From a virus (lineage: Duplodnaviria; Caudoviricetes): a stretch of DNA of 64,000 nt. The stretch covers positions 1-64,000 of the IMG/VR virus record IMGVR_UViG_3300026549_000050. The stretch is one strand, 5' to 3'. Shown here in pieces: positions 11,972 to 38,521 of this stretch (the stretch's first letter is position 1; every line of letters begins with the position of its first letter). Below the pieces are notes generated by a model. It saw only the letters and a program-made list of their open reading frames with translations. It made no database searches and was not told the origin of the DNA. A program made the translations under genes and the position numbers.

Positions 11972-12664
11972 ATGAAAAATGATATAGTATATGTGTTAAA
12001 AGAAGGTGTAGACTCAGACGAATTACGCTATTCTTTGCGTTCAGTTTGTAAGAATTTTAACTTCAATGAAGTATGGTTTTATGGCGGTTGTCCAAAAGAT
12101 ATACAACCAGACCATTGGATACAATTTAGTCAGGTTGGATTAAATAAGTGGCATCGTACAAGAAGTATGTATCAAGCCATTTTTGAGAATGATGATATTA
12201 CTCCAGATTTCTTTTTGTTTAATGATGATTTTTTTATTATGCGCCATTATAGACAGGACTTAGCAATTTCTAATGGAACTTTAGATATGCAAGCCTATCG
12301 AATACAATGTGCTAATAGCGGTTTTTCAAGATACACAGAAAGACTTAAACATACTGCGACAGCTTTGCGTAAACGAGGATTTGATACAATTTCTTATGAG
12401 TGTCATGTGCCTATGCTGATTAATCGTGAGAAGGCGTTAAAACTTCTAACTGACTTTAAGAAAGACACGGCTTTTCGGTCTACTTATGGTAATTATTATA
12501 ACATAGGTGGAAGACTTATTGATGACTATAAGATAGTAAAATTAGACCAAGAACCAGACAGAGAAAAAGAAATTATATCTACTACTGAAGAATCTTTTGC
12601 AAAAGGAAAAGTAGGAGATTATATTAAGAAAAAATTTCCAAACAAAAGTAAATATGAGCTATAG
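11972..12664 (+). CDS. Stealth-family-like (hexose-1-phosphate transferase-like) protein
   Basis: ELRYSLRSV and FFLFNDDFFI match Stealth conserved region 2. Confidence 0.6.
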   Translation: MKNDIVYVLKEGVDSDELRYSLRSVCKNFNFNEVWFYGGCPKDIQPDHWIQFSQVGLNKWHRTRSMYQAIFENDDITPDFFLFNDDFFIMRHYRQDLAISNGTLDMQAYRIQCANSGFSRYTERLKHTATALRKRGFDTISYECHVPMLINREKALKLLTDFKKDTAFRSTYGNYYNIGGRLIDDYKIVKLDQEPDREKEIISTTEESFAKGKVGDYIKKKFPNKSKYEL

Positions 12665-12724
12665 CTTTGCGGGGCAGTCCACCCACCGCTGCATAGCGGA
12701 GGGCGCAGACTGATTCCCGCTTAT

Positions 12725-12813
12725 GGAAGTAGTTGCAACAAATACACAAACGACTCAGGGTAGGGAAGGACGGTTTAATCGTCTGCAAAGTGGTTCGACT
12801 CCACCTACTTCCA
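12725..12813 (+). ncRNA. tRNA-like element with an 8-bp acceptor stem and T arm, no canonical D/anticodon arms
   Basis: ggaagtag/ctacttcc; gtgg-ttcgact-ccac. Confidence 0.55.
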
Positions 12814-12948
12814 ATTGTCATTTTAACCTGTTAGACAATAAAAAACAAGTGTAGGAGAATATCCTTAGTATTGCTTGGCGCCGCTTTGTTAGGGGTCTGT
12901 ACGGGTAAACGTAAGGCAACGCTTAAATTATTTTTTTATGGAGGGTTT

Positions 12949-13203
12949 ATGGGAAAAAGATATATACCAAAACACTCTACACTTTGGTATCAAAAGTTGC
13001 ATCGTAGTTATATAGATTGGGAAAATGAACTATATGATAGCGTTACTGGCGTATTAAAAGTGTATTGGAATAAATTGATAGTATGGCTTCATAGTTTTAC
13101 GAATTTTCTTATTAGGTGTATAGATAAACACGATAAAATTTGGGATAAAATTGAAGAAAAAATTGAAGATTTCTATGAAGACTATATACTTAATAAGTTT
13201 TAG
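12949..13203 (+). CDS. Hypothetical protein
   Basis: RBS ggagg before ATG 12949. Confidence 0.55.
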   Translation: MGKRYIPKHSTLWYQKLHRSYIDWENELYDSVTGVLKVYWNKLIVWLHSFTNFLIRCIDKHDKIWDKIEEKIEDFYEDYILNKF

Positions 13204-13211
13204 GAGATTGT

Positions 13212-13439
13212 ATGTGGATTGAAACTGTAGATGGTTATGTAAAACAAGATGCAATTATTGACGTACATATAAATCACTGCTATCCAGGTGCGGTATATGT
13301 ATTGTTAACCTCTGGTGATTCAGTTAAGGTAGCAGATTTTGGAAACGACTCATTAAGTGCAGAAACTTATCTATCTGAATTAATGCGTATTTTAATTGGA
13401 AATAGATTTGAAAATGAGTTTGTAAGATTACTTCCATAG
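13212..13439 (+). CDS. Hypothetical protein
   Basis: RBS aggag. Confidence 0.65.
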   Translation: MWIETVDGYVKQDAIIDVHINHCYPGAVYVLLTSGDSVKVADFGNDSLSAETYLSELMRILIGNRFENEFVRLLP

Positions 13440-13511
13440 GATAATAGTAATTTGAATTTTCTTTATTTTTTTTATATAATATATATAGAAAGATTAAGAA
13501 AGGAGATTTCT

Positions 13512-13805
13512 ATGTTTACAGAAAAAGAACTTTATGAACATCTATTCGATGGCGCAGAAGGAAGTCTTCAATTGTCTTACGAAGATGCGTGTACGCTTCA
13601 GAAGATACTTATCTCTAACGGATATGCAGTTATGATGAGTACTGGTGATATCGGCGATGACTATAAAATAGAATGGATATATGCTGGAACTTCAGGTAAT
13701 CTGAACTATGCCGATTCTTCTAATGTGGTTTTCTCCCATAGAGACTATCTTGATATGCTCTATTGGAAAGATTACGAGGTTGAAGAGGAGGAACTCGACC
13801 AATGA
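13512..13805 (+). CDS. Hypothetical acidic protein
   Basis: Promoter plus RBS aaggag before ATG 13512. Confidence 0.65.
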   Translation: MFTEKELYEHLFDGAEGSLQLSYEDACTLQKILISNGYAVMMSTGDIGDDYKIEWIYAGTSGNLNYADSSNVVFSHRDYLDMLYWKDYEVEEEELDQ

Positions 13806-14095
13806 AAGCGATAATAACCGTTGGATATGGTGCTGGTTTTTCGGAGTGGAATGACCCGAATCTTGCAGTAGACCAGAGAATTGTAGAAACTTTCGAGAAA
13901 AACCCAGAGATGAGTCTTGATGAGTTCAAGGCGCTGTGTAAGTCTTGCGGTTATGATGATATATGTGTCATTAAGGAAGATTTGGAGACAATGGAAGTTG
14001 TTGAGATTCCAGATGATGTATACTTTCGCATTACTTCACACGGTGGTTGGGAGAGTGTAGAAGTGTTCGACCCAGAGAAATGGTTTCACTCATAG
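13802..14095 (+). CDS. Hypothetical protein
   Basis: GYGAGFSEWN...YFRITSHGGWESV; overlapping ATGA junction. Confidence 0.65.
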   Translation: MKAIITVGYGAGFSEWNDPNLAVDQRIVETFEKNPEMSLDEFKALCKSCGYDDICVIKEDLETMEVVEIPDDVYFRITSHGGWESVEVFDPEKWFHS

Positions 14096-14440
14096 GGTGT
14101 TAATCATATATATAAATCCTTTCAATAGAACGTAAGTAGTCTTATGTGGCGCGGCCGCAAAGCATATGTATGAAAGAAACGTATATGAGGAAAGGTTGAC
14201 TATTTGCTGGTGATGAGGCAGTTTCTGAATAGGAGAAATTGGTTAACCATCGTAGTAGTAGGGAATCTAAATGACTAACTGGTTGTACTAATTGTAAAAC
14301 CAGGAAAGCAAACACTTATGATGTTGTCCTACTAAGTTCGCAACTTTGATAGCGCGGCCGCCGAGTACGTATAGGTGGTCGTTATATTGGCTCTAACTTT
14401 CAAATGACTAGTAAACTCTTGGGTTAGAGCTAATCAATAT

Positions 14441-14517
14441 GCCTCTGTAATCCAATCGGTAGAGATAGTGGATTTAAAATCCATACAGTGCAGGTTCGAA
14501 TCCAGCCAGAGGTACCA
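14441..14517 (+). tRNA. tRNA-Leu(TAA), short variable arm
   Basis: gcctctg/cagaggt acceptor; gtgga-ttTAAaa-tccat; encoded CCA. Confidence 0.85.
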
Positions 14518-14565
14518 ACTAATTTTTCAAAAGATCAGTATAATTATTATTTTGGAGAAGAATAA

Positions 14566-15096
14566 ATGGGTTTAAATAAAGGATATTTAACTGCTAAAAC
14601 GGATAAGGCTTCTGATGAGGTTTTTACTCCAGCGTATGCAGTAAAACCGTTATTAAAATATTTGATTAATTTCAATGGAACTATATGGTGTCCCTTTGAT
14701 AAAGAAGATAGTGAATACGTTAAAATTTTTCGAGAAAATGGATATAATGTTATCTGCACTCATATAGATAATGAAGAAAATTTCTTTTACTACGAACCAG
14801 AAAACTATGATTTAATTATATCAAATCCTCCATTTTCTATTAAAGATGATATACTTAAACGCTTGTATGAGTTGGATAAACCATATGCAATTTTACTTCC
14901 AGTTCCTTCTTTACAAGGACAAAAGCGTTTTCCTTATATGAAAAATTGTCAAGCTTTAATTTTTGACAAGCGAATAAATTATTATATGACGCCAGATAAA
15001 ACACAAGTACAAAAGGGAGTAAGTTTTGGTAGTTTTTATTTATGTAAAGACTTTCTTCCTAAAGATTTGATTTTTGAAGAATTAAAAACCAAATAG
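14566..15096 (+). CDS. N6-adenine (amino) methyltransferase
   Basis: SDEVFTP, IWCPFD, catalytic DLIISNPPFS. Confidence 0.8.
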   Translation: MGLNKGYLTAKTDKASDEVFTPAYAVKPLLKYLINFNGTIWCPFDKEDSEYVKIFRENGYNVICTHIDNEENFFYYEPENYDLIISNPPFSIKDDILKRLYELDKPYAILLPVPSLQGQKRFPYMKNCQALIFDKRINYYMTPDKTQVQKGVSFGSFYLCKDFLPKDLIFEELKTK

Positions 15097-15270
15097 ACCG
15101 TCGATTCTGTATGTCGACGGCGGGCCGCCGTAAACGTATGGCACATAAGTAAAACTAATTTGAAAAATTAATAAAAATCCTATATAATATATATAGAAAG
15201 TGAGAAAAGAAATCTCACTTTTGGGTATCAATAACTGGGCCGACAACGGAATATGTGAGATACCCCTTAG

Positions 15271-15329
15271 GTCGTCGTAGTTCAAAATGGCAGAACGCTG
15301 AGTTGCGGGTTCGAATCCCGTCGATGACA
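15271..15329 (+). ncRNA. tRNA-like RNA lacking the anticodon arm
   Basis: Acceptor gtcgtcg/cgatgac; D arm gttc-aaaatggca-gaac; 8-nt linker gctgagtt; T arm gcggg-ttcgaat-cccgt. Confidence 0.7.
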
Positions 15330-16082
15330 AAGGTCAAATAGGTTAGGACACGGAACAACTTCTATTTGGCTCCGTAAAGTCGCTAAATAGCTGGCGCTGA
15401 GCGACGATAAACAATAGCGTGAGCGGGCGGAGGACAAGTTAATCCGCCGCAATAGAAATGCTTGTCCCGAGTAGGGTTAGAACTCCGCAGATTCTTCCTT
15501 CTGACGACAACAAAAATGAAGAATGGATAGACCATTTCAAAACGAGCAATCACATCGGCTTAGGAATAGACTGTGTGGGCGATGTTAGTTGAATATTTCT
15601 ACGCCCATATAAAGAAGTGAAACCTGCACCCACCACAGGGGCCGTATCGACGATGAAAGCGAGAAATGTGGTAGACACTAATAGCGAGTTGGAGCGTATA
15701 AGTCTATAAAAATTCTCAAGAACTCATCCGCGATGAAGGCGCGGAGGATATAAATGCAACCAATTCCGCAGATGTCCTCTGCGGCGTGAATCCACCGAGA
15801 TGAAATTAAAACGGACACATAAACAGAACATACTGTATAAAAGAAACGTACTTTGCGAATTTATTGGCGTTAAATGAATTCGTCGTTCTGCGGCGGCACC
15901 GTAGAGGTTTATTACACCGCTTACATAACGGGAAACGCACCATAGAGTAGTAAATATTATGTAATCGCGGTTGGCAGACCATCGCATATCCTAGGTTATA
16001 AACACGGTCTCTGCTCGTTTGGAAGTAGTATCGAGAAAACTTTCCGTATTTTGTAGGTTTTCACGAAGTAAAATCTACAAAC
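15330..16082 (+). ncRNA. Large structured RNA candidate with pseudoknots
   Basis: No credible ORF; H-type pseudoknots at 15379-15419 and 15423-15467; long-range helix aaacgagca (~15540) with tgctcgttt (~16012). Confidence 0.5.
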
Positions 16083-16089
16083 GCGTTGT

Positions 16090-16164
16090 CGGGGATTGGA
16101 GCAGTGGTAGCTTGTCAGCCTCATAAGCTGAAGGTCAGTAGTTCGAATCTACTATCCCCAACCA
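16090..16164 (+). tRNA. tRNA-Met(CAT), initiator-like C1xA72 mismatch
   Basis: tcagc-ctCATaa-gctga; encoded CCA. Confidence 0.9.
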
Positions 16165-16167
16165 TTT

Positions 16168-16243
16168 GGGACATTAGCTCAGTTGGCAGAGCAAACGGCC
16201 GTTAACCGTTAGGTCCTTCGTTCAAGTCGAAGATGTCCCGCCA
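16168..16243 (+). tRNA. tRNA-Asn(GTT)
   Basis: aacgg-ccGTTaa-ccgtt (C33); encoded CCA. Confidence 0.88.
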
Positions 16244-16247
16244 TTTT

Positions 16248-16340
16248 GGGAAAATAGTTTATAAGGTTAGAACGCAATATAGTTCCCTTCCGCGCGGAAT
16301 GGAAGGGACTGAAGTGTGGGTTCGAGTCCCACTTTTCCCC
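16248..16340 (+). ncRNA. tRNA-like RNA with an aberrant, extended anticodon arm
   Basis: gggaaaa/ttttccc acceptor; D arm gttt/gaac; ~10-bp stem agttcccttcc/ggaagggact with a 9-nt loop; T arm gtggg-ttcgagt-cccac. Confidence 0.65.
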
Positions 16341-16431
16341 TTAAAGTTGAAACTTCTCGGATAAGCACGCTACGGTGGGTTGCAGTCTGCGCGGGCCAGG
16401 CAGAGAGAAGAACTTACCCGCATTTTAATGA

Positions 16432-16509
16432 ACCCGAGTGGAGGAATTGGTAGACTCAACAGCCTTTGAAGTTGTAGTTTTGTGCGTTCAAGTCGCACCT
16501 CGGGTGCCA
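16432..16509 (+). tRNA. tRNA-Gln(TTG)
   Basis: acccgag/ctcgggt; acagc-ctTTGaa-gttgt; G73; encoded CCA. Confidence 0.85.
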
Positions 16510-16603
16510 ATTTTCGAACTAAAAATCCGAACCTTGACTTAATTTTGTATAAGTGCGTTATTGTTTTTCCACTTATAATTAGAAGAAATAAGGAGGAAAT
16601 AAT

Positions 16604-17575
16604 ATGGCAATAATTGATAATTTTACAAAAGAAGAGCTTGAAATTATAGCTAAAGAAAGTAAAAGTTATAAAGAAGTTCTTGTTAAGTTGGGGTATTGTG
16701 TAGGGGGTAATAATCATAAAACAGTTAAAAATCGTTTAGAAAAATATGGTATTACTACGGAACATTTTTCAATAGATACTGAAAACATTGTTGTTCGGAC
16801 AGAAGAAAATGTATTCTGCAAAAATTCTACTGCCTCTCAAGCAGTATTGCGTCGATGGTTTACAAAAGGTGAATATGTACCATATAAATGTGATTGCTGT
16901 GGCATTTCAGAGTGGCAAGGCAAAGATTTATCCCTACAATTAGACCATATCAATGGGGATAATCGCGATAATAGATTAGAAAATCTACGCTGGTTATGCC
17001 CTAATTGTCATTCACAAACAGATACTTTTTGCGGAAAACACTTAAAGAAAAAACACGCCACTTCTAAAGGCATTAAAATACCAAAACCAAAAATAAACCA
17101 TTGTGTTGATTGCGGTGTTGAAATTTCGTCGGCGGCCGAGCGATGTCTTGAATGTGCGATGAAGGCCCGTAGGTTTATTGACAGACCTGCCAAAGAAGAA
17201 CTTGAAAAGATTTTGTGGGAGTATAAAGGTAATTTTACCGCAGTAGGTAAATTATTTAATACATCTGATAATAATGTACGCAAATGGTGTAAATCTTATG
17301 GATTACCATTTCATTCTAAAGATTATAAGCCAAAAGTAGAAGTTAAACCAAGAGAAAAAACAGATGAAGGCTTGCCAAAACCTGTCGTTCAATTAGATAA
17401 AAAGACTTTAGAAGAATTAAACACTTTTGAGTCTTTACAGGGCGCGGCGAGATGGCTTCAAGAAAATAACCATACTACTGATAAAAGTGTAAGTGGTGTA
17501 GCAGCGCACATAGGACAAGTATGTAATGGTCAACGCAATACTGCTTATGGTTTTAAATGGGATTTTATAAGTTAA
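16604..17575 (+). CDS. HNH homing endonuclease with Zn-finger, HTH and NUMOD1-like DNA-binding domains
   Basis: CDCC...LQLDHINGDNRDNRLENLRWLCPNCH; C-terminal FESLQGAAR...CNGQRNTAYGFKW. Confidence 0.88.
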   Translation: MAIIDNFTKEELEIIAKESKSYKEVLVKLGYCVGGNNHKTVKNRLEKYGITTEHFSIDTENIVVRTEENVFCKNSTASQAVLRRWFTKGEYVPYKCDCCGISEWQGKDLSLQLDHINGDNRDNRLENLRWLCPNCHSQTDTFCGKHLKKKHATSKGIKIPKPKINHCVDCGVEISSAAERCLECAMKARRFIDRPAKEELEKILWEYKGNFTAVGKLFNTSDNNVRKWCKSYGLPFHSKDYKPKVEVKPREKTDEGLPKPVVQLDKKTLEELNTFESLQGAARWLQENNHTTDKSVSGVAAHIGQVCNGQRNTAYGFKWDFIS

Positions 17576-18155
17576 TTTCCGCAAACGGTTCCGTCGATTC
17601 CATACGTCGACGGCTGCGCGCTGAATACGTACAACATATACGTAAAACTTGAAATTTTATTATTTTTTTTATATAATATATATAGAAAGTGAGAGAGGGA
17701 GAAAATAATTGCTCCTTTATCCAACGAACGGACTCTTTTACACTTTCTACCATTTATACCTGCAGCAAAACGGGTTTACGCAGATGTGCGGTTGGCCGAC
17801 CTTAAGGCACGAACTTGCAAGTTCTATTAAAATCATCCAAGTCTGGTCTAGATGTAAAAAGGAAAAAATAAGGTGGCCTCTTAGCCAGATTGAGGGGCGA
17901 TATTTAGATATTACCAAAGTAATTTGTTAATATGCCAGGGCTGCGTAGAAGTCGCACTTCAAGGCAGAAGCCCGTTGTACTCACGGAATCAAAGCCGAGT
18001 CGCACTCGGCACTTACCGCGCCCACACGGTATATAAAACATTGAACCGAATTAACGGAAAAGTCTGCTGCGGTGGACCACGAATTGACGTGGCGTGTGTG
18101 GGATATATCAGGGCTGGGCCTCTGCCACTAAGGGCGGGGGTGCAACGCCCTGTAT

Positions 18156-18231
18156 GGCGCGGTAGAGCAGTTAGGTCAGCCCGCCGAGGAAGAAATCTCG
18201 GAAGTCGCAGGTTCAAATCCTGTCCGCGCCT
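18156..18231 (+). tRNA. tRNA-like/pseudo-tRNA with a purine-rich 8-nt anticodon loop (undetermined)
   Basis: ggcgcgg/ccgcgcc acceptor; ccgag-gaagaaat-ctcgg; T arm gcagg-ttcaaat-cctgt; no U33 and no CCA. Confidence 0.65.
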
Positions 18232-29655: not shown

Positions 29656-29994
29656 CTACGCGAGTGTGTAGCCCTTCTGAACTCCCTTGCCAGTGACTTT
29701 GATGTCAGTCTTAGCAACTGTTCCAGCCTCAACGAGCTGGCGCAGAAGTGCAGACGCTTTCTGAGTCGAGATGGAAACTTCCTCGCCGATAACAGTGGCT
29801 GTCTTAGGCTCGTCAGTAAGTACAGCTACGATTGCCTCTTTGATTGGCTCGTTCTCCAGAGCTTTCTTGGAAACGCGGTTCTTTCTCTTCTCGTTCTCCG
29901 CATCCATTTTCTCGATGAGCTCGTTAGCTTTCTCGATAACTTCGTCGTTGATTGTTCCGTTTGCTACTGATACATAGAAATCTCTCTTTGTCAT
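29656..29994 (-). CDS. Winged-helix protein, paralogue 1
   Basis: TATVIGEEVSISTQKASALLRQLV...KGVQKGYTL. Confidence 0.75.
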   Translation of the reverse strand: MTKRDFYVSVANGTINDEVIEKANELIEKMDAENEKRKNRVSKKALENEPIKEAIVAVLTDEPKTATVIGEEVSISTQKASALLRQLVEAGTVAKTDIKVTGKGVQKGYTLA

Positions 29995-30312
29995 GGTAAT
30001 TTTCTTTCTCCCCTGTAAGGCGTGGGGCGCCAGTTACGTTAGTTTGTTTTTAAGTGTTTCGAGAAGTTACTTTTCTCTCTCACTTTCTATATATATTATA
30101 GAGCTTTTTTAGAACTTTTTCAAATTTTTTCAGCTCTACTTTTCGGGAAGGAAGGAAGAAGTTTTTTCTTTCTTTTCTTACCTTGTATATATATTATAGA
30201 GCTTTTTTCAGAATTATTCAAATTTTATTTATCCGATGGTCGTACGGGTGCGCCTGAAAATTTGACTTTTTTTGTCAAATTTTAGAAGAAGAACATATGT
30301 TCGAATTTTGGG

Positions 30313-30460
30313 CACAGCTCCTCAAAATTTGACTTTAAATGTCAAATTTCCAGCGCAGCTCCCACGACAATGCAGCTCCGAAATCTGCGCGCAGCTCCGC
30401 CGACGTCCGGACGCCAGCTGCCCGGCCGCAGCTCCTCGGCACAGCTCCTTCGCAGCTCCC
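30313..30460 (+). repeat. Cluster of CAGCTCC direct repeats
   Basis: About 7-8 copies of (G/A)CAGCTCC within 150 bp. Confidence 0.7.
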
Positions 30461-31260
30461 TACGGCCGCGATTGTACGGACGACAAGAACGTTTGTTCGA
30501 TTTCACACGTTGGCTTCGTCGATATATGGGATTGGAGAACGTATGTTCGACTACGTAAAACGAACGTATGTTCGCAAACGTATGTTCGCTTCGTTAGTTA
30601 ATTAATTAACGAACTTTTTTATAAAAAAGGATTGACTTGCGTTGGGAAGTGTGGTATGATAGAATGGGGTAGTATACGATTTTTGGCCCGGACAGAAATG
30701 AACCGGGCGAAAAAGAACGTATGTTTGTCTTAGGAATAAAAAAAGAGGAATTAATCCTCTTCATTAGTTTCAAATTTAATAAATGGTAAATCGCTATAAA
30801 GACCAAACTCTATTGGTTCAATAAGATTGTTATTGGAGTCAACAAATTCTATAGTCTCGTCTGCCTCATATCTTAAAAGTTTATTAATTAGTTCTCTTAC
30901 TGTCATTTTATTTTCTCCTTTCTTACAATAGTATTATAACAAACATATCTTTGTCTGTCAATACTTTTTCTTGTACTTATTTAAGTACAAGATTATTTTC
31001 CCTTTCGTTTTTGCCAATCTCTTAACGATTTAAAAATAGAGTTGATTGTTTTCTCAACCTCGTCAATTCCATATTCGTTGCATAAGTCTTCAATCAGTTC
31101 AAACATTTCTCTTGGTGTTATCATTTCTATTTTCTCCTTTCTTACAATGTAAGTATAGCAAAATTATTTTAATCTGTCAAGTTTTTTTCTTGTACTAAAA
31201 TCCGTACAAGGCGCCCGGCCCGCGCGAACAAACGTTCGTTTAATGAGTATAAAAAAGGGA

Positions 31261-31620
31261 CTACTGTCCCTTTGCGTGAATTTCCGCTTTCTTTTTGCGA
31301 ATTTCCTTATCACGTTCGATTTTCTTCGCTTTCGCTTCGGCTTTCTCTTTTGCCTTGCGTTCTTTTTCAGCGAGATTATGGACGTAGTCCTGTGCGATTG
31401 CATATGCGTCATATGGTTCAAGACCTTTGTTCGCCCCTGTTGGTACTTTTACAGTAAATACAACGAATTTTTCCTCATCGTTGCAATCGACAACGGGGAT
31501 TGCGATTTCATTGGACTTGACTTGCAAGACTTCTTCGCCCAAGTCATACAGAAACTGTGCTACCTTTTCGAGATATTTTGCCCTAAGGCTTTCGTTTGCC
31601 ATTTTGTTAGAGATTGCCAT
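31261..31620 (-). CDS. Hypothetical protein with Lys/Glu-rich tail, paralogue 1
   Basis: EEVLQVKSNEIAIP...VKVPTGANKGLEPYD. Confidence 0.75.
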   Translation of the reverse strand: MAISNKMANESLRAKYLEKVAQFLYDLGEEVLQVKSNEIAIPVVDCNDEEKFVVFTVKVPTGANKGLEPYDAYAIAQDYVHNLAEKERKAKEKAEAKAKKIERDKEIRKKKAEIHAKGQ

Positions 31621-31818
31621 AGATTTGCCTACCTTTCTTTTAACTCTTTATCTTACAATAGAATTATAGCAAATTAAATTGAATGTGTCAAGCGAATTTT
31701 ATGAATTTATCTATGTATTTTTTTTCGTACAAGGCGGCCGGTCGAAAAATTATAAGAAAACATATGTTCGTTTTGTTTCGGCCGGGCGCAGTGTATAAAT
31801 ATTCAGAAAAAAGAGTGC

Positions 31819-32484
31819 CTATGCAAAGCACTCTTTTCTCATTGGTTTATGTTGTCTGATGCAGTGAGCGAAGATTTCTTTTTCTATCAGTACATCTTCA
31901 AGTCCTGTATGACTTTCAATAAAGTTATTATCGCCACTTATATATCTGTAAAGAATTTCTGCGGTTGCTCTGACTCTACCATTCTTTGTGAGATATCCGT
32001 TATTATATGCCCACTCTTTATAAGCCCACTGTTTACAGATTGTATCTTGTGCCATTTTGAGAGTATCCCAAAGTGGTATTCCATAAGGGAGGAAAAACCT
32101 ATATTTTGACTTTGTAAGATATCTTTGTGTGCAAGTGGTGGCACGATAGTCAAATCTTGCGTTGTGTGCGATGATTGCTTTGACTTTGTAAGTGTCGCAA
32201 AGTTCTTTAATTTTGTTTCTGATTGTAAAGTACTTTGCAATTGTGCGTTGTCCACTTGCTATCTGTTCTTCATACATTGGAATTTTCTTTGCATAGTAGG
32301 CAGTTTTCATTAAGTCTTTCATTCCGCAAAATGTTTCATAGACTATAAAGGAAAATGTTTCGTATATATTACCCTTTTTATCGTGTATACAACCGCCTAT
32401 ATCGTATACAATTGGATTATCAAGTCCGTTTGCGGTTTCTGTGTCGATTGTGAGATAGTAATTTTTTCTTCTGTCAATTTTCAT
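31819..32484 (-). CDS. DEDDh 3'-5' exonuclease (DnaQ-like), paralogue 1
   Basis: IDTET, AHNARFD, HTGLED. Confidence 0.85.
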   Translation of the reverse strand: MKIDRRKNYYLTIDTETANGLDNPIVYDIGGCIHDKKGNIYETFSFIVYETFCGMKDLMKTAYYAKKIPMYEEQIASGQRTIAKYFTIRNKIKELCDTYKVKAIIAHNARFDYRATTCTQRYLTKSKYRFFLPYGIPLWDTLKMAQDTICKQWAYKEWAYNNGYLTKNGRVRATAEILYRYISGDNNFIESHTGLEDVLIEKEIFAHCIRQHKPMRKECFA

Positions 32485-32634
32485 TTCTGTATTGACTCCT
32501 TTCTTTAATGTAACTAAAGTATACCATAGAATCAAACCAATTGCAACCCCTTTTAGAAAAATTTTTTATGTTTTTATTTTCGTACAAGATTGCGCCCGGG
32601 CGCGAAGAACGTATGTTCGATGAAGAGGGATTGC

Positions 32635-33090
32635 CTAAGCAACCCCTTTCAGAATTTCTATGATATTGTCAACATCGTATGCAGTACCAATCCAATTTGT
32701 TCTGTTTGGTTCTTCATCGTCAAAGAGTATTCCATTTGGGAAACGAACGACTGTTTCTTTCGGTGTGCCATATGGTACGATTTTAATTTCGTCAAACTTT
32801 ACATTTTTGAGATGTGTTTTCAACCAATTTATTTTGGCAACCTTTACTCTTTCATCATATTCTTCTGTGGAGTTTTTAGGCAACCAACTTACAATACCGA
32901 TTGTATATCCGTTTCTCTGTAACTTGTTGAGAAGTCTTGCAAGTACATTCATTTTTATCATTGGGATTGCGTTTGTATATGGTGTGGTTTCTCTTGCGAT
33001 AATCATATCCAACCAACCATTTACACCATAGAGATTTGCGATAGTACCGTCCATATCGAAATAAATTGCTTTGTTAGTAATCATCATCAT
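32635..33090 (-). CDS. HAD-family 5'-nucleotidase-like phosphatase, paralogue 1
   Basis: YFDMDGTIA, IVSW, K..WL, LFDDE. Confidence 0.85.
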   Translation of the reverse strand: MMMITNKAIYFDMDGTIANLYGVNGWLDMIIARETTPYTNAIPMIKMNVLARLLNKLQRNGYTIGIVSWLPKNSTEEYDERVKVAKINWLKTHLKNVKFDEIKIVPYGTPKETVVRFPNGILFDDEEPNRTNWIGTAYDVDNIIEILKGVA

Positions 33091-33327
33091 ATTTCTTACC
33101 TCTCTTTCTGTATTCATTATAGTCGATGAAGAGGGAAAAGTCAATACCCTTTTATGTTTTTTTATGTTTTTTTCGTTGGTGGCGCCCGGGCCATCCGAAC
33201 ATATGTTCTTTTTTAATTAAATGAAAAAGTCCACTGTAAGTGGACTTCTTCAATAAAGGAGGTAAACAATTTTCATAAAAGTGGGAAAAGGTTTTTTAAG
33301 GGATAAACCTTTTCAAAACCCTTGCGA

Positions 33328-33654
33328 CTACAGTGAGTAAGCCTTGCGAGTACCCTTACCCTTTACCTTTACATCGCTAACTGTCAGACCCTCAATCTGC
33401 TTGAGGAGAGCAGACGCTTTCTGTGTGGAGATTTCAACCTTTTCGGCAATCTCTGTGGCAGTCTGTGGCTCTTCTGTGAGAACGCCCTTGATTGCTTCTA
33501 TTATTGGGGCATTTTCGAGTGCCTTTTTCGATACTGTTTCTCTACGCTTTGCGTTACGAGCATCGAGTTTTTCGAGTTCCTCTCTTACCTTTGCGATAAC
33601 CTCATCAGTGATGTTGCCATTAACGATTTCTACGAACATTTCTCTGTTAGTCAT
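33328..33654 (-). CDS. Winged-helix protein, paralogue 2
   Basis: TATEIAEKVEISTQKASALLKQI...KVKGKGTRKAYSL. Confidence 0.75.
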   Translation of the reverse strand: MTNREMFVEIVNGNITDEVIAKVREELEKLDARNAKRRETVSKKALENAPIIEAIKGVLTEEPQTATEIAEKVEISTQKASALLKQIEGLTVSDVKVKGKGTRKAYSL

Positions 33655-33756
33655 AATTCTTTTTCCTTTCTACTGACTTAACTTTATCTTATGTTTGTAT
33701 TATATCAGACTTTGTGGTGTCTGTCAATACCTTTTTTATGTTTTTCTTTGTTTTTC

Positions 33757-34128
33757 TGTCAAGGGGAACTTTTGACGCGTCCGTCATGGGATTCGAACCC
33801 TTGGCAAGCATTGGGCAGCCCACTTGCACCTAATCCCCTTGACAATTATATTGTATCAGATTTTTATTAATCTGTCAATACCTTTTTTAGATTTTTTTAT
33901 TTTTTTGAGATTTTTTTCTCTCTTTACTGTATCTATATTATACTACAGATTTTTTATTTTGTCAAGTGTTTTTTCAAACTTTTTTAATTTTTTTGTCTAA
34001 AGGGAGAACTGTTTTTTAGTGTTGAGATAGACGCATCTACTTCCCACTCACGCTCAACTTTCTTGGGATAGTTTTTCGTGTTCTCCCTTTGACAATTATA
34101 GTATAGCAAAATTCTCAAATTAAGTCAA
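33757..34128 (-). ncRNA. Small-RNA cassette array 1 (units A 33757-33844 and B 33995-34093, plus an extra promoter at 33937-33965)
   Basis: Each unit is TTGAC(A/T)-17-TA(C/T)A(A/C)T followed by an ORF-less ~90-100 nt segment closed by an 11-bp terminal stem. Confidence 0.6.
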
Positions 34129-34215
34129 CTATTTTTCTTAAAAAATCTTGTACTAAAATCCGTACAAGGCGCCCGGTCCGTTTGAACGTATGTTCGTCAT
34201 TATAAAAGTGAGGAA

Positions 34216-34647
34216 TTAAACCTCACTTAGTTTACAAATAATATTATTACATTCTACTTCATGATTACGATAATAATTTATTGCCCATTCTGTTGCATGA
34301 TACTCCATTGGTATGTTAAAATATTCACGATTGAATTCTTCAAAATTATCTTCTTCATATTTCATTTGTAAAAGAAAATAAATTACATTTCTTTCTTCAT
34401 TTAATTCCTCTGTATATGTCATTATATGCCCTATTTCGTGTAATACTGACATTAAATAAGGATTAAAATCTACATTAAATTCTTGTTTAAGAAACTGCGA
34501 CCATATTCTATCTTCCTCTTCATTTAGTTCGTGTGGTATATAGATAATTTCTTCTTGTATATCTACACAAAATCTATTATCATTTTCAACTTCTATATAT
34601 TCATCAATTGTTTTTATAAAATCTCTTATTAAAGTAATTTTATTCAT
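34216..34647 (-). CDS. HEXXH zinc metallopeptidase-like protein (ImmA/IrrE-like)
   Basis: SVLHEIGHI...PMEYHATEWA. Confidence 0.65.
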   Translation of the reverse strand: MNKITLIRDFIKTIDEYIEVENDNRFCVDIQEEIIYIPHELNEEEDRIWSQFLKQEFNVDFNPYLMSVLHEIGHIMTYTEELNEERNVIYFLLQMKYEEDNFEEFNREYFNIPMEYHATEWAINYYRNHEVECNNIICKLSEV

Positions 34648-34814
34648 TTGTTTTTCTCCTTTCTATATTTTTAGTATAAACCAAATTTATAAAATTGTCA
34701 AGTATTTTTTAATAGTTATTTTTTTCACAAAGTGGCCCGGACCGACCGGCCGCGAACGTATGTTCGTTTTGTTCGTAAAAAAAGAACGCACGTTTCGTGC
34801 GTTCAATTTTTCGA

Positions 34815-35153
34815 CTATGCGAGTGAGTAAGACTTCTGTGTACCCTTACCCTTGACTTTTACGTCCTCGACAGTGAGAGTACCAACCTCTACCAACTGTC
34901 TGCAAAGGGCAGACGCTTTTGATGTGGAGATTTCGCAACCCTTTGCGATTTCACTTGCGAGATGTGAACCATCAGCGAGGAACTCAACGATTTTTGCCTT
35001 GATTGGCTCGTTCTCGACAGACTTCTTGGAAGGCATATTCTTTCTCTTTGCGTTCCTCTCATCGAGTTTTGCGATTTCCTCTGTTGCCTTTGCGATTACT
35101 TCGTCTGTGAGGTTTCCGTTAATTACTTCTGTAAGCATTTCTCTGAGTGTCAT
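34815..35153 (-). CDS. Winged-helix protein, paralogue 3
   Basis: LASEIAKGCEISTSKASALCRQLV...KVKGKGTQKSYSL. Confidence 0.75.
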   Translation of the reverse strand: MTLREMLTEVINGNLTDEVIAKATEEIAKLDERNAKRKNMPSKKSVENEPIKAKIVEFLADGSHLASEIAKGCEISTSKASALCRQLVEVGTLTVEDVKVKGKGTQKSYSLA

Positions 35154-35243
35154 AATTTTTTCCTTTCTACTGACATTTAACTTTATCTTATGTTTGTATT
35201 ATATCAGACTTTTTGGTGTCTGTCAATACCTTTTTTGAATTTT

Positions 35244-35853
35244 TCAAAGGGGAGAGGGCGCTTGACAGAAATTTATATAGCGCATCCGCGTCTTTCTCTG
35301 TAATGAGAATGTTCTTTCTTTGAACTATCCTCTCCCCTTGATAATTATATTGTATCAGATTTTTATTAATCTGTCAATACCTTTTTTAAATTTTTTTTAT
35401 TTTGTCAAGGGGAACTTTTGACGCGTCCGTCATGGGATTCGAACCCTTGGCAAGCATTGGGCACCCCACTTGCACCTAATCCCCTTGACAATTATATTGT
35501 ATCAGATTTCTCTGATTTTGTCAAGAGGGTTTTGAAAAGTTTTTCAATTTTTTTTCGATGTCCTCTTCCCACAAAACTCTGTTCGCTCAATGTGAGTGTG
35601 CAAGGGTAAGCCCTTAGCCCCAAAGAGATTTCTCTTAATGGTCGTCATCTCCCTCTTGACAATTATATTGTATCAGATTTCTTTTAATCTGTCAAGCCTT
35701 TTTTAGATTTTTTTTATTTTTTTTAGTCGACTTGGGGAGAGATTTTCATATCAGAGAGTCCATAAGGCGCATTATCTCTCGTTGACGCCAACTTCGGAAT
35801 TTTATCTCTCCCCTTGACAATTATAGTATAGCAAAATTTTTAAAATAAGTCAA
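35244..35853 (-). ncRNA. Small-RNA cassette array 2 (units C 35244-35342, D 35403-35490, E 35519-35661, F 35726-35818)
   Basis: Four consecutive promoter+hairpin units; D differs from A by one base. Confidence 0.6.
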
Positions 35854-35941
35854 CACTTTTCTTTGTATTTGTTTAGAAACAATCGCGTTAATTTTTTAAC
35901 AAAGTGCCGGGCGCGGTAGACAATAAAAATGTGATAGTAAA

Positions 35942-36583
35942 CTACCACATTTTTGTTTCATAATAGAAACCATCAATTTTTTCACAAGCGAGCAATATTT
36001 TATATTCAATCTCACAATCTGCGAGTGCAGTATGCTCTTCTGTGAAATTTTTATCAAACATATACTGTGCTACGATTTCTGCGGTATATCTGTTTGCGTT
36101 TCTCTTTGTCAGATAGTTATTATCTTTACAAAATGCTCTGTATTCTTTATCGTTTTTGAGGACGTGGCGAGAGAGTGCAAGAATGTCGTGGAATTCTGTA
36201 CCATAAGGGAAGAAATACCTCCACTTTGAACTTGTAATATATCTCTGTGTCGTTGCGAGTGAGCAATAATCAAAATTACAATTATAAGCAAATACTTTTT
36301 TGATGTTGTATTTTTTCATAATGTGGCGAAGTGTCCACTTAACATTATTAAATGATGTAAGAGTGCGTTTTCCGTCTTTAATCTCTTTCCAATACTGTGG
36401 AATTTTTTCATTGAAGTATGCAACACTCATTAATTCTTTATTAAGAAAAATATCTGCGATTACAAAACTGTCTTTGTGGTAAATTGTTCCGTTGAAGTCT
36501 GCGACTATATAACCTAAATCATAGACGAGTGCGTCATCAAGTGAGTTTGTTGTTTCTGTGTCGAGAATTAAAATCTTTTCCAT
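35942..36583 (-). CDS. DEDDh 3'-5' exonuclease, paralogue 2
   Basis: LDTET, AYNCNFD, HTALAD. Confidence 0.85.
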   Translation of the reverse strand: MEKILILDTETTNSLDDALVYDLGYIVADFNGTIYHKDSFVIADIFLNKELMSVAYFNEKIPQYWKEIKDGKRTLTSFNNVKWTLRHIMKKYNIKKVFAYNCNFDYCSLATTQRYITSSKWRYFFPYGTEFHDILALSRHVLKNDKEYRAFCKDNNYLTKRNANRYTAEIVAQYMFDKNFTEEHTALADCEIEYKILLACEKIDGFYYETKMW

Positions 36584-37175
36584 TGTTTTACTTCCTTTCT
36601 TTTGATATATTTATTATAAGCGATGAAGAGGATAAAGTCAAGTATAAATCTTGTTTTTTTATGTTTTTTTCGTCGAAGGCGGCCCGGTCAAAAAAAAGAA
36701 CAAGTGTTCTACAACCACTTGTCCAAATTGTTTTTATTTACTTTTTCTCTTTTCTTCCTTTTATCGGAATAAACACCTGTTCTAAATGGTATGTCCTGCA
36801 TACCTCTTGACTTTTTTATAAGGTCAAGTCCACTAATTGTGGATACATGAATTGTTTTCTTTTTCTTTCCCATTTTTCTACCTCACTCCGTTTTTCTTTC
36901 CTACTAAATATATGTAGAGTTTCAGCAAGTCTTGTGCATTTTTTCTCATCAAGAAATCTCTTGATTTTTCCGATACGCAACCCATAATTATTAGTCTGTT
37001 TGTCATTTCCATTTTACTCATTGTTTTTCTCTCCTTTCTTTTCCTATAATAATATTACCACAATTATAGGAAGTTGTCAAGCAAAAATTTCAATAAATAT
37101 TTTTTTAACAAACTTTTCGACCGGCCGCACTCGACGAACATCTGTTCGATGAAGAGGGATAAAAAAGAGCGCGCA

Positions 37176-37538
37176 TTACTGCGCGCCCTTTTCTGCAATC
37201 TCTTTTTTCTTCTCTCTGATTGCTTTATCTTTGGCAATCTTTTGTTTCTTTTTCTCTTCTCTTTCTTTTGCTTTCTCCTCTTTCTCTGCAAGTTTATGTT
37301 CGTAATCTTGCGCGAGTTCATAACCATCGTAGACCTCAAGACCTTTGTTTGCGCCTGTTGGAATTTTAACGGTTATGACTGCAAAGTCTTCGTTTCCCTC
37401 ACAACCAACGCAAGGAATTGCTATCTCATTCGACTTTACTCTTAAAACCTCTTCATTTTGGGAGAGAAAACAATCAATAATTCTCTGAAGAAACTCACCT
37501 CTCAAAATTTCACGCTCGACTTTTCTTGAAACTGCCAT
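37176..37538 (-). CDS. Hypothetical protein with Lys/Glu-rich tail, paralogue 2
   Basis: EEVLRVKSNEIAIP...VKIPTGANKGLEVYD. Confidence 0.75.
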   Translation of the reverse strand: MAVSRKVEREILRGEFLQRIIDCFLSQNEEVLRVKSNEIAIPCVGCEGNEDFAVITVKIPTGANKGLEVYDGYELAQDYEHKLAEKEEKAKEREEKKKQKIAKDKAIREKKKEIAEKGAQ

Positions 37539-37958
37539 ATTGTCAACTCCTTTCTTTTTTTTAAATTCTCTTTATTTTCTAAAATTATTATAACAAATTT
37601 TTACAAAAAAGTCAAATTATTTTTTGTTTTATTTTAGGAACAAAGGCACATAGAACATTATCGGAAGTGAAACCAAAAACAAAAATCCGAAAAAATCGTG
37701 GTTTGTTATTTCTGTAAGAATACCGCAGAACATAGCAAAGATTACCCATATTGTGAAAATTACCCAAATCATATTTCTATCTCCTTTCTTTTTACAAACT
37801 AATTCTACAATATTCGGATTGTAAAGTCAATAGTTTTCGGAAAAATTTTTTCAATAGTTATTTTTTTAACAATCGCGCCCGGGCAATTCGCACAAATGTT
37901 CGATTATGGGATAAAAAAGATTGTACGAATTTTAGAATAAATTCGTACAATCTTTTTT

Positions 37959-38348
37959 CTAACGAAGTCTTTTACAGTCAATTACTGCAACTACATCATC
38001 GCAATAATTTGTATATGGATTGTAAACAAAGTATGATATAACCTTTTTATCTTTCTTTACATATTTGTTATATCTTACATATTCGCCTTTCTTACTATAT
38101 CCATAGTAACCACGAGAGTAGGAAGTAAACTTTTCAACATAGACAAACTTTGTATTCTTTCTGTGTTCCATTTTCTTTGCGTTGTACTTTGTAAATACTC
38201 TGATTGTCTTTGTTGGATAATGTTTCTTACAATACTGTTTCATTATTGTATAGTCTGTTTTTGTCTGTGCATAACTTGGAGACACATAGACAGAACACAT
38301 AAGAATAGCAATAACGAGTAGTGGAATAATAAACGGATTTCTTTTCAT
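37959..38348 (-). CDS. Basic exported protein (signal peptide)
   Basis: MKRNPFIIPLLVIAILMCSVYVSPSYA; RBS aaaggag. Confidence 0.65.
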   Translation of the reverse strand: MKRNPFIIPLLVIAILMCSVYVSPSYAQTKTDYTIMKQYCKKHYPTKTIRVFTKYNAKKMEHRKNTKFVYVEKFTSYSRGYYGYSKKGEYVRYNKYVKKDKKVISYFVYNPYTNYCDDVVAVIDCKRLR

Positions 38349-38521
38349 AACTATGTCTCCTTTCTTTAGTCTAATTATACTCGATGAAGAGGGATAAGTC
38401 AATACCTTATTTTGTTTTTATTGACGTACAATCGCGCGACTGCATGGATAGTCTTGAACGTATGTTCGATGGACCGGCCGCCGAACACGTGTTCTTCTGC
38501 GTTCAATCTCAAAGGGATTGT

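What the first reader, a model, noticed from the sequence alone, without database searches (positions are those of the whole stretch)
33757..35853. Arrays of individually promoted hairpin small RNAs with constant stems and variable interiors, upstream of winged-helix genes (top candidate new system)
Six ORF-less minus-strand units (A 33757-33844, B 33995-34093, C 35244-35342, D 35403-35490, E 35519-35661, F 35726-35818) each follow a near-consensus promoter with an exact 17-bp spacer. Each starts with (G/A)TCAA(G/A)(G/A)GG and folds back through a 10-11-bp terminal stem whose sequence differs between units while pairing is kept (ggggagagat/atctctcccc, aaagggagaac/gttctcccttt, tgtcaagggga/tccccttgaca). 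Interiors of about 60-120 nt are unrelated except A=D (one mismatch), which contain a tRNA T-arm GGGTTCGAATCCC; A-D and F share a RAYGCG hexamer. In E the 3' stem arm doubles as the -35 of the next unit. Both arrays sit immediately upstream of a wHTH paralogue. I infer a diversifying library of decoy/guide RNAs (anti-CRISPR RNA, antitoxin mimic, protein sponge) possibly loaded on the wHTH proteins.
Basis: partly seen in the sequence, partly recalled or inferred. Interest (0 to 1): 0.85.

Follow-up and report, generated by a model that had tools for sequence, protein, structure and literature searches.

The report
Stem-clamped phage early RNA modules
A rumen phage, and dozens of its relatives, place short gene-less units behind very strong promoters; in each unit the first bases of the RNA pair with the last bases to close a variable middle part, usually just upstream of a small DNA-binding-type gene, and no described RNA family matches them.

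Summary
All six minus-strand units are real. Each has a near-consensus promoter with a 17-bp spacer, a predicted start at the G of GTCAARRGG, and a 9-13 bp closing stem. No unit carries a tRNA call, an Rfam match or a conserved ORF.

The same build recurs in 76 non-redundant units in 46 sources (the window plus 45 related viral loci), and in independent ENA/Logan contigs.

- **Stem:** the variable stem position covaries (A:T 29, G:C 25, mismatched 10).
- **Next promoter:** in 34 of 49 representative units the 3' arm is also the -35 of the next promoter.
- **Neighbour gene:** a winged-helix (wHTH) homologue is the first gene downstream in 39% of units found without using that gene.
- **Unit E:** it belongs to an 8-member family with strong covariation and invariant single-stranded motifs.
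- **Units A and D:** they belong to a family with a tRNA-type T-loop.

Against a library of free small RNAs, no terminator follows any unit and interiors are only weakly structured on average. Metatranscriptome contigs run through array and gene, and nothing supports anti-CRISPR or antitoxin mimicry.

Best reading: promoter-coupled, end-clamped RNA modules inside the multi-promoter leader of early wHTH genes. Whether they act in trans is open.

The parts
35825..35853 (-). Promoter of unit F (TTGACT-17-TATACT, TG extension)
   Evidence: sequence
35726..35818 (-). Unit F: starts GUCAAGGGGAGAGAU; closes through the 10-bp inner stem GGGGAGAGAU/AUCUCUCCCC; the outer TTGAC arm is lost
   Evidence: z -2.0
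35667..35695 (-). Promoter of unit E (TTGACA-17-TACAAT)
35520..35660 (-). Unit E: member of an 8-sequence structured RNA family with a 10-bp clamp, several covarying hairpins and the invariant motifs UGACGACCAU and GRAGAGGACA. Its 3' arm is the -35 of D's promoter.
35496..35524 (-). Promoter of unit D; its -35 hexamer lies in E's 3' arm
35404..35489 (-). Unit D: 10-bp clamp, T-loop hairpin GGGUUCGAAUCCC and a hairpin with a GACG loop; copy of A with one loop difference
35349..35377 (-). Promoter of unit C
35244..35342 (-). Unit C: starts AUCAAGGGGAGAGG; 13-bp clamp with one bulge
   Evidence: z -4.7
35198..35226 (-). Gene-proximal promoter of wHTH paralogue 2 (12/12 consensus); no clamp behind it
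34815..35153 (-). wHTH paralogue 2 (112 aa)
34784..34804 (-). First intrinsic terminator downstream of array F-E-D-C (9-bp stem followed by a T run)
34100..34128 (-). Promoter of unit B
33995..34093 (-). Unit B: starts GUCAAAGGGAGAAC; about 15-bp clamp; position 6 is A:U instead of G:C
   Evidence: z -4.5
33937..33965 (-). Extra 12/12 consensus promoter between B and A, followed by a short A-rich leader without a clamp
33850..33878 (-). Promoter of unit A
33758..33843 (-). Unit A: same as D except for one base in a hairpin loop
33699..33727 (-). Gene-proximal promoter of wHTH paralogue 1
33328..33654 (-). wHTH paralogue 1 (108 aa)
33222..33252 (-). Terminator after wHTH paralogue 1

Best explanation
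The units are RNA-level modules: promoter-coupled, end-clamped structured RNAs built into the multi-promoter leaders of early genes, most often wHTH genes, in a clade of rumen and gut phages that probably infect Bacillota.

Proposed mechanism:
1. Host sigma-70/sigma-A-type RNA polymerase starts at the G of GUCAAGRGG. This is inferred from the -10 spacing.
2. The polymerase transcribes a family-specific interior.
3. When the 3' arm CCYCUUGAC emerges it pairs with the 5' end, so the triphosphate end is buried in a 9-14 bp helix that encloses the whole interval between promoters.
4. No terminator follows, so the polymerase runs on into the next unit and the wHTH gene.
5. Inferred from known Bacillota RNA decay: a 5'-terminal helix blocks RppH and RNase J1, and a 3' helix stops 3' exonucleases. 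The module should therefore persist, either as the protected 5' domain of the long wHTH mRNA or, after cleavage in the A-rich linker, as a stable 70-140 nt RNA.

The interior is not only spacer in every case. The E family and the T-loop family carry invariant single-stranded motifs and covarying helices, which implies specific partners that remain unknown.

Shown here: the anatomy, the conservation, the covariation and the gene linkage. Inferred: the start sites, the end protection, any release as free RNA and any action in trans.
For: - **Site specificity:** six exact promoter-plus-arm sites against 0.23 expected, and no others in the genome.
- **Folding:** folds with z of -2.0 to -4.7.
- **Recurrence:** the same build in 76 non-redundant units from 46 sources. 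It also occurs upstream of wHTH orthologues in independent ENA/Logan contigs, in arrays of 2-4 units.
- **Pairing selected within units:** with the other eight stem pairs fixed, position 7 is A:T 29, G:C 25, A:C 4, G:T 4, other 2 (Fisher p 3.5e-9). Both variants sit side by side in one array (E next to D). That argues for pairing inside each unit rather than one protein reading both arms.
- **Inner stems:** the inner stem extensions use unrelated sequences (B, C, F).
- **E family:** 91.9% of cells are paired against 38-56% when partners are slid; 14 of 28 pairs show compensatory changes; 0 of 500 shuffles reach this. The start codon is not conserved, and the family lies upstream of different genes in different phages.
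- **T-loop family:** the hairpin with the GACG loop keeps its loop while its stem changes.
- **No terminator:** none lies between the units and the gene.
- **Weak RNA hint:** in two RNA libraries of one sample, contigs cover 35177-35849 and 35480-35853 at word depth 59 and 32. The neighbouring gene contigs have depth 3-7, while a DNA library is flat at 55-70. The RNA contigs stop at F's promoter where the DNA contig continues.
Against: - No read-level data exist, so starts, ends and discrete species are unproven. The RNA-library evidence is contigs only, from one sample.
- Stem mismatches show no G:U over A:C excess in the unbiased sample (4 against 4; 10 against 6). The clamp alone therefore does not prove the RNA strand.
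- Interiors are weakly structured on average (mean z -0.8; 10 of 52 below -2) and show no sense/antisense difference.
- Gene-proximal promoters lack clamps, which is odd if 5' protection were essential.
- GUCAA/UUGAC is nearly invariant. This could reflect promoter constraints (initial transcribed sequence, and the -35 of the next promoter) rather than RNA function.
Confidence: 0.45

Rival explanations
1. Purely cis-acting leaders. The arrays are tandem early promoters, as in T7 A1-A3, that boost wHTH expression. Each clamp only protects and compacts the 5' end of its own long mRNA isoform, and the interiors are spacer that sets the distance between polymerases.
For: - No terminators follow the units.
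- The link to a downstream gene is tight.
- The 3' arm is the next promoter's -35 in 34 of 49 units.
- Interiors are weakly structured and turn over fast.
- RNA contigs are continuous from array to gene at similar depth.
- Each promoter in an array carries its own clamp at +1.
- The 5' arm is polypurine and Shine-Dalgarno-like (GGAG/GAGG). This resembles the Bacillus 5' stabilisers listed in PMC3997798.
Against: - The E family keeps two invariant single-stranded motifs (10 and 9-10 nt) while all its helices have diverged, and it sits upstream of different genes.
- T-loop and tRNA-like interiors exist.
- A local 5' hairpin would be enough for protection.
- The gene-proximal promoters have no clamp.
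Confidence: 0.3
2. One reading: a diversifying library of trans-acting decoy or guide RNAs (anti-CRISPR, antitoxin mimic, protein sponge) that are loaded onto the wHTH proteins.
For: - Units are individually promoted, with many unrelated interiors in one array and rapid turnover.
- Units and wHTH genes are adjacent.
- tRNA-like and T-loop interiors could titrate tRNA-binding factors.
- The wHTH has a very basic linker and wing.
Against: - The wHTH models as an ordinary DNA-binding MarR/ArsR/PadR-like fold.
- Two of the four wHTH paralogues in this phage have no such units.
- About half of all units precede other genes.
- No repeats like ToxI and no toxin gene are present, and nothing shows free RNAs.
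Confidence: 0.12
3. DNA-level element. The two arms are operator half-sites for a phage regulator, possibly the wHTH itself. One half-site sits over the start of the upstream promoter and the other over the -35 of the downstream promoter, giving looped autorepression.
For: - The arms coincide with +1 of one promoter and the -35 of the next.
- The adjacent gene encodes a DNA-binding-type protein.
- The clamp shows no G:U over A:C bias.
Against: - Arms match within a unit but differ between neighbouring units upstream of the same gene (E against D, and B, C, F).
- The inner stem extensions are unrelated in sequence.
- Each arm is a single non-palindromic half-site, and the two arms lie 50-120 bp apart.
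- Interior hairpins covary.
Confidence: 0.07
4. Functionless by-product. The units are spacer left by duplication and shuffling of promoter cassettes, or they encode small peptides.
For: - The early region is segmentally duplicated: A equals D, the two wHTH leaders are nearly identical, and the exonuclease-like and 119/120-aa genes are paired.
- Some units contain short ORFs.
Against: - Complementarity is kept through compensatory change.
- The build is conserved across 46 sources.
- No ORF or start codon is conserved in the E family.
Confidence: 0.04

Closest known systems
Tandem early promoters of coliphage T7 (A1, A2, A3) with their gene-less leader (from my own knowledge)
   Same: Several strong host-type promoters in tandem, about 100 bp apart, with no genes between them, upstream of the first early gene; transcripts read through.
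   Different: Here every promoter is coupled to a clamp that begins at +1. The 3' arm lies in the next promoter's -35, and the interiors fall into conserved RNA families.
5' mRNA stabilisers of Bacillota: the aprE leader stem-loop, STAB-SD, and the SP82 polypurine element (references listed in PMC3997798)
   Same: A helix starting at the very 5' end and/or a 5' polypurine Shine-Dalgarno-like run, co-transcribed with the stabilised gene; phage SP82 early RNA is a precedent.
   Different: Known stabilisers are local hairpins or ribosome-binding sites. They are not long-range clamps around 50-120 nt, and they are not repeated as arrays with varied content.
Bacterial Y RNA / YrlA (from my own knowledge)
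   Same: The 5' and 3' ends pair in a terminal stem that closes a domain with a tRNA-type T-loop; some are phage-encoded.
   Different: No Rfam match, no Ro/Rsr (TROVE) gene in the phage, and most units have no T-loop.
P1/P7 c4 antisense RNA, cut from the leader of the operon that it controls (from my own knowledge)
   Same: A small structured RNA encoded in the leader upstream of its gene, with variable loops on a constant scaffold.
   Different: Unit interiors show no cognate complementarity to the downstream translation start: cognate mean -13.5 against non-cognate -14.1 kcal/mol.
phi29 pRNA (from my own knowledge)
   Same: An early-promoter-driven phage RNA whose 5' and 3' ends form a helix, with a scaffold conserved despite sequence divergence.
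   Different: No Rfam pRNA match, a different phage type (115 kb), and many different units per genome.
Phage RNA mimics of defence RNAs: pseudo-ToxI repeats and RNA anti-CRISPRs (from my own knowledge)
   Same: Small non-coding phage RNAs made early, in some cases each with its own promoter.
   Different: Those copy a host repeat. These units are mutually unrelated, are not tandem repeats, and no host counterpart was found or could be searched for, because the host is unknown.

Membership tests
tRNA | Cloverleaf with a 7-nt anticodon loop, detected by ARAGORN or Rfam RF00005 | tested here: not met
   No call at any unit. The 77-nt tRNA-like unit L168:1207-1283 is not called either. By my own reading it has a 7-bp acceptor-like stem, U8, a GG-containing D-like loop and a T-loop, but only a 5-nt loop where the anticodon loop should be.
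tmRNA | A match to the tmRNA model at or above its gathering score, with a tag reading frame | tested here: not met
   Only the 13-nt T-arm matches, at 9.7 bits against the 47-bit gathering score. ARAGORN finds no tmRNA.
Y RNA / YrlA | A match to the Rfam models and a Ro/Rsr (TROVE) partner gene | tested here: not met
   No Rfam match at E up to 10. No TROVE domain in the 115-kb genome, although the controls were positive.
Stand-alone sRNA gene | Own promoter and own intrinsic terminator | tested here: not met
   A promoter is present, but no terminator lies between any unit and the wHTH gene.
Type III toxin-antitoxin antitoxin RNA (ToxI-like) | Tandem near-identical repeats next to a ToxN/AbiE-type toxin gene | tested here: not met
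   The units are mutually unrelated except for A and D. The neighbouring proteins are wHTH, an exonuclease-like protein and a HAD-like protein.
Retron ncRNA | Terminal inverted repeats and an adjacent reverse transcriptase | tested here: not met
   Terminal pairing is present, but the genome has no RVT_1 domain.
Known riboswitches, ribozymes and phage RNAs in Rfam 15 | A covariance-model match | tested here: not met
   No relevant match at E up to 10 in 33300-36300 or in L168:780-1510.
5' mRNA stabiliser (Bacillota type) | A helix within a few nucleotides of the 5' end, co-transcribed with the gene | tested here: inconclusive
   The stem starts at the predicted +1 in all six units and no terminator precedes the gene. 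The start site is predicted, not mapped.
5' mRNA stabiliser (Bacillota type) | Lengthens the half-life of the downstream mRNA | not testable with these tools
   Needs rifampicin chase or reporter assays.
Tandem early promoter array (T7 A1-A3 type) | Several consensus host-type promoters in tandem without intervening genes, upstream of an early gene | tested here: met
   Five promoters lie in 35198-35853 and four in 33699-34128, scoring 10-12 of 12 and all with 17-bp spacers. The only ORFs between them are short, unconserved ones listed mechanically.
RNA anti-CRISPR / CRISPR-repeat mimic | Sequence and structure likeness to a host CRISPR repeat | not testable with these tools
   The host is unknown. 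The single genome-contig scan found only phage-like contigs in Bacillota or rumen assemblies.

The most novel reading that the evidence does not exclude
A modular phage 'RNA cassette' system. A universal promoter-coupled clamp, acting like an acceptor stem whose 3' strand is written into the next promoter, would serve as a common scaffold for expression, stability and processing. It would carry a shufflable repertoire of small structured RNAs, including tRNA-like and E-type RNAs. These would be made within the first minutes of infection and would work with the abundant wHTH proteins, as ribonucleoprotein particles or as decoys, in host takeover or counter-defence.
Probability: 0.2. Interest if true: 0.85.

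Novelty: new variant of a known kind. Interest (0 to 1): 0.62.

Why it matters
If the modules are what they appear to be, they define a widespread and undescribed RNA architecture in gut and rumen phages. It has a constant clamp tied to the transcription start and to the next promoter, and a fast-changing interior. At least two interior families, E-type and T-loop/tRNA-like, bear the marks of specific function. The partner protein family is very large: more than 5,400 clusters matched at E up to 1e-5 among the candidates scored, and none has an informative name.

The promoters are near-consensus, so the system should be testable in laboratory hosts such as E. coli or Bacillus subtilis. It could show how phages stabilise or deploy early RNAs in Bacillota. 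The clamp could also be useful as a portable RNA-stabilising scaffold.

Tried and rejected
- **Known families:** Rfam at gathering score and at E up to 10 gave nothing relevant. ARAGORN gave no call at any unit. The phage genome has no TROVE, reverse transcriptase or RNase III domain.
- **Annotated phage records:** only two short, irrelevant blastn matches.
- **c4-like antisense control of the downstream gene:** no cognate complementarity.
- **Target for the E motif inside the phage:** none; the reverse complement of UGACGACCAU occurs only at the unit itself.
- **Shared interior motif:** k-mer enrichment showed only A/T runs, pyrimidine runs and GC-rich stem pieces. GGAC/GGACA, which I suspected, did not appear among the enriched words. 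RAYGCG is only mildly enriched. A GCGCGC / Z-RNA idea, prompted by a Z-alpha fold hit at rank 27, rests on a handful of units and was dropped.
- **Strand test by G:U against A:C mismatches in the clamp:** inconclusive. The sense against antisense folding energy of interiors shows no difference.
- **G1 family:** the sequences are too similar to test covariation.
- **RNA libraries:** only contigs were available, so no starts, ends or strand could be read. Units A and B had no contig cover in the RNA runs, probably because of the A/D repeat, and this is not evidence of silence.
- **Inverton idea:** I considered an invertible promoter flanked by the arms and rejected it. The segment between the arms of adjacent units is only about 25-30 bp.
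- **Literature:** two full-text searches found no description of such units. One old paper (PMC177050) is not held.
- **Earlier findings of this scan:** the sequence look-up returned only first-reader notes on this same stretch and unrelated tRNA notes from other genomes. The scan therefore has no earlier record of this build on other DNA.
- **Genome-contig scan:** three hits. One is a chance palindromic terminator in a Lachnospiraceae assembly, and two are phage-like contigs.
Full report
**Setting.** The window is the first 64 kb of a 115,301-bp virus record with direct terminal repeats. Sequencing runs that hold it come from bovine gut samples. The plus strand carries an endolysin, a ligase, a ROOL RNA, a tRNA array and, from about 41 kb, the packaging and structural genes. 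Between them, at about 29-41 kb, lies a minus-strand block of small genes. Each gene has its own near-consensus sigma-70-type promoter and terminator. The finding lies inside this block.

**The observation.**
- The pattern TAYAMTWTAATTRTCAARRGG occurs exactly six times, all on the minus strand at the stated places, against 0.23 expected. The arm motif occurs nowhere else in the genome apart from two chance sites.
- Each unit follows TTGAC(A/T), a 17-bp spacer, a TG extension and TA(T/C)A(A/C)T.
- With that -10 element, the seventh base downstream is the G of GTCAA, so the predicted RNA begins exactly where the closing stem begins. A second TATAAT five bases further on would need a 22-bp spacer, so I discount it.
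- All six units fold with the 5' and 3' ends paired. z is -3.4 to -4.7 for A-E and -2.0 for F.
- A and D differ by one loop base.
- No unit is called by ARAGORN or matches Rfam. Only the 13-nt T-arm scores, at 9.7 bits.
- No terminator-like site lies between any unit and the next wHTH gene. The first terminators are at 34784-34804 and 33222-33252.
- A seventh, perfect promoter at 33937-33965 has no clamp behind it.

**Relatives.**
- A search with the wHTH protein gave 18 viral loci, and a DNA pattern scan gave over a hundred more stretches, many of them chance hits.
- A filter was then applied: promoter, then RTCAARRG, then at least 8 closing pairs. It found 76 non-redundant units in 46 sources, with a median length of 97 nt.
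- Independent ENA and Logan contigs that encode 56-62% identical wHTH orthologues carry arrays of 2-4 units in the gene-less 350-700 bp upstream.
- Related complete genomes of 115-126 kb hold 0-2 units, so this phage's six are an expansion.
- One real unit lies on a contig binned into a Bacillota assembly. The region also carries 13 GAAC-N4-GTTC boxes against 0.57 expected. By my own knowledge this is the core of the Gram-positive LexA (Cheo) box, and together these points hint at a Bacillota host.

**What is constant and what varies.**
- The outer nine pairs are nearly invariant: positions 1-5 are GUCAA/UUGAC in 69-79 of 79 units.
- Position 7 varies. When candidates are chosen on the other eight pairs only, position 7 is A:T 29, G:C 25, A:C 4, G:T 4 and other 2 (Fisher p 3.5e-9).
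- Both variants occur in one array upstream of one gene (E next to D). B, C and F extend the stem inward with unrelated sequences. This fits base pairing within each unit, not one protein reading two half-sites.
- The 5' sequence often continues as GGGGAGAGA even where it is unpaired. So part of the constancy belongs to the promoter's initial transcribed region.
- In 34 of 49 representative units the 3' arm TTGAC(A) is the -35 of a downstream promoter, 29 of them with a TG extension. The A/T-rich stretch before the arm lies where that promoter's UP element would be. In the E family that stretch is nevertheless a hairpin whose central pair changes C:G, G:C, U:A without ever mismatching.
- In this window only E shares its arm with the next promoter. 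The other units are followed by about 25 nt of A-rich linker and then a separate promoter, yet they keep the TTGAC arm.
- As a consequence, in read-through RNA the 3' arm of one unit could pair instead with the 5' arm of the next unit, around the promoter core. I note this alternative register but could not test it.

**Interiors.**
- Clustering gives several families and about 40 singletons.
- On average the interiors are only slightly more stable than shuffles (mean z -0.8; 10 of 52 below -2), with no sense/antisense difference.
- No motif is common to all interiors.
- Some families are clearly constrained. Unit E belongs to a family of eight sequences (108-137 bits with a model built from them, against at most 31.5 bits for any other unit). 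These come from contigs of 18 to 180 kb.
- The E family has a clamp, several hairpins, and the invariant single-stranded motifs UGACGACCAU and GRAGAGGACA.
- On the model-fitted alignment, 91.9% of cells pair against 38-56% when partners are slid by one to three columns. 14 of 28 pairs show compensatory changes, and no shuffle in 500 reaches the observed values. That alignment is fitted to the structure, which favours it somewhat.
- A further hairpin after UGACGACCAU is predicted in most of the eight single-sequence folds, with different stems such as AAGAG/CUCUU, CCUAAG/CUUAGG and CCCAAG/CUUGGG.
- The AUG seen in the window's copy is CUG or is followed at once by a stop in others, so no peptide is conserved. 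The family precedes different genes in different phages.
- Units A and D share their T-loop hairpin with units in L020 and L094. The following hairpin keeps its GACG loop while the stem changes, for example GACG/CGUC against GUGUG/CACAC.
- One relative carries a 77-nt unit that I read as a degenerate tRNA: a 7-bp acceptor-like clamp, U8, a D-like loop with GG and a T-loop, but a 5-nt loop in place of the anticodon loop. Neither ARAGORN nor Rfam calls it.

**Link to the wHTH gene.**
- The first ORF downstream is a wHTH homologue for 37 of the 76 units. This includes 21 of 54 units in 18 of 36 loci that were found by DNA pattern alone.
- Other recurrent neighbours are the 119/120-aa family and the exonuclease-like family, which are also neighbours in this window.
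- The wHTH models with confidence (pLDDT 88) as two long helices followed by a winged helix. It matches many MarR/ArsR/PadR/TFE-type DNA binders at similar weak scores.
- The family is very large and has no informative name.
- Two further paralogues in the window lack GTCAA-type units. One of them has two tandem promoters, each followed by a polypurine/polypyrimidine hairpin.

**Expression.** Only assembled contigs could be laid, so the following is a weak hint.
- In two RNA libraries of one sample, contigs cover 35177-35849 (word depth 59) and 35480-35853 (depth 32). The wHTH genes have depth 43-57, while contigs of the flanking genes have depth 3-7.
- A DNA library is flat at 55-70 across the region.
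- The RNA contigs stop at F's promoter where the DNA contig runs on.
- This agrees with a transcription unit running from F's promoter to the terminator at 34790. It does not show discrete small RNAs.

**Interpretation.**
- The anatomy and covariation establish a selected nucleic-acid structure tied to transcription starts. I therefore read the units as RNA modules.
- In Bacillota, a helix at the very 5' end and 5' polypurine ribosome-binding-like runs are known mRNA stabilisers. The primary papers (aprE leader, SP82 polypurine element) are listed in PMC3997798; the rest is my own knowledge.
- A clamp that buries the 5' triphosphate end and ends in a 3' helix should make the module long-lived. 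It would persist as the head of the long wHTH mRNA or, after a cut in the A-rich linker, as a free 70-140 nt RNA. That step is inference.
- The cis-only reading (tandem promoters plus stabiliser) explains the missing terminators, the shared -35 and the weak average structure.
- It does not explain the invariant single-stranded motifs of the E family, their occurrence before unrelated genes, or the tRNA-like interiors.
- A DNA operator model fits poorly with arms that match within units but differ between neighbouring units.

**Verdict.** The finding is a real, conserved and undescribed class of promoter-coupled, stem-clamped RNA modules. Their function is unresolved. I rate them a new variant of known kinds (phage early leaders, stabilisers and small RNAs) and of moderately high interest.

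Noticed in passing
window 9284-9867 (+): Full-length ROOL RNA (261 bits against a gathering score of 99), just upstream of the tRNA array.
   Followed up: no
window 11588-18231 (+): tRNA array with calls by ARAGORN and/or Rfam. It includes a tRNA at 18156-18231 with a four-base anticodon call (agaa), a possible frameshift-suppressor-like tRNA, and two Rfam-only tRNA hits at 15271-15329 and 16248-16340.
   Followed up: no
window 30291-38494: 13 GAAC-N4-GTTC boxes (by my own knowledge the core of the Gram-positive LexA/Cheo box) against 0.57 expected. All lie in the minus-strand early block, mostly at cassette junctions, and none lies inside the unit arrays. One (34184-34195) sits about 56 bp upstream of unit B's promoter.
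   Followed up: partly
window 31261-32535 and 35942-37538: Segmental duplication of early cassettes: two exonuclease-like genes (phrog_20187; 238 and 213 aa), two 119/120-aa genes, and two wHTH genes with near-identical leaders.
   Followed up: partly
window promoter spacers, e.g. 35361-35378, 35505-35520, 33862-33879: The spacer between -35 and -10 of many of these promoters is itself a small palindrome (CAGAT-N8-ATCTG; in relatives ATCACA-N-TGTGAT or CCAC-N-GTGG). It is anchored on the CA of the -35 and the TG of the extended -10. It could be an operator, or a hairpin in read-through RNA.
   Followed up: no
window 30040-30225 (-): Upstream of the wHTH paralogue at 29656-29997 there are two tandem promoters, each followed by a polypurine run and a matching pyrimidine run (a local 5' hairpin). 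This looks like a simpler version of the clamp.
   Followed up: no
L168:1207-1283 (+): A 77-nt promoter-driven tRNA-like unit with a 7-bp acceptor-like stem, U8, a D-like loop with GG and a T-loop UUCGAAU, but a 5-nt loop in place of the anticodon loop. It shares the motif GAGGACACCGA with the E family. No tRNA tool calls it.
   Followed up: partly
L103:4460-4566: One unit is detected in both orientations, with a promoter-like site on each side. It may be a symmetric or bidirectional case.
   Followed up: no
window 37612-37772 (-) and L021:1325-1519: In a relative, a unit-like leader (GUCAAGAGGGG...CCCUCUU) directly precedes a small hydrophobic ORF that is similar to the 47/51-aa ORF in the window. 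So clamps can also head ordinary mRNAs.
   Followed up: no
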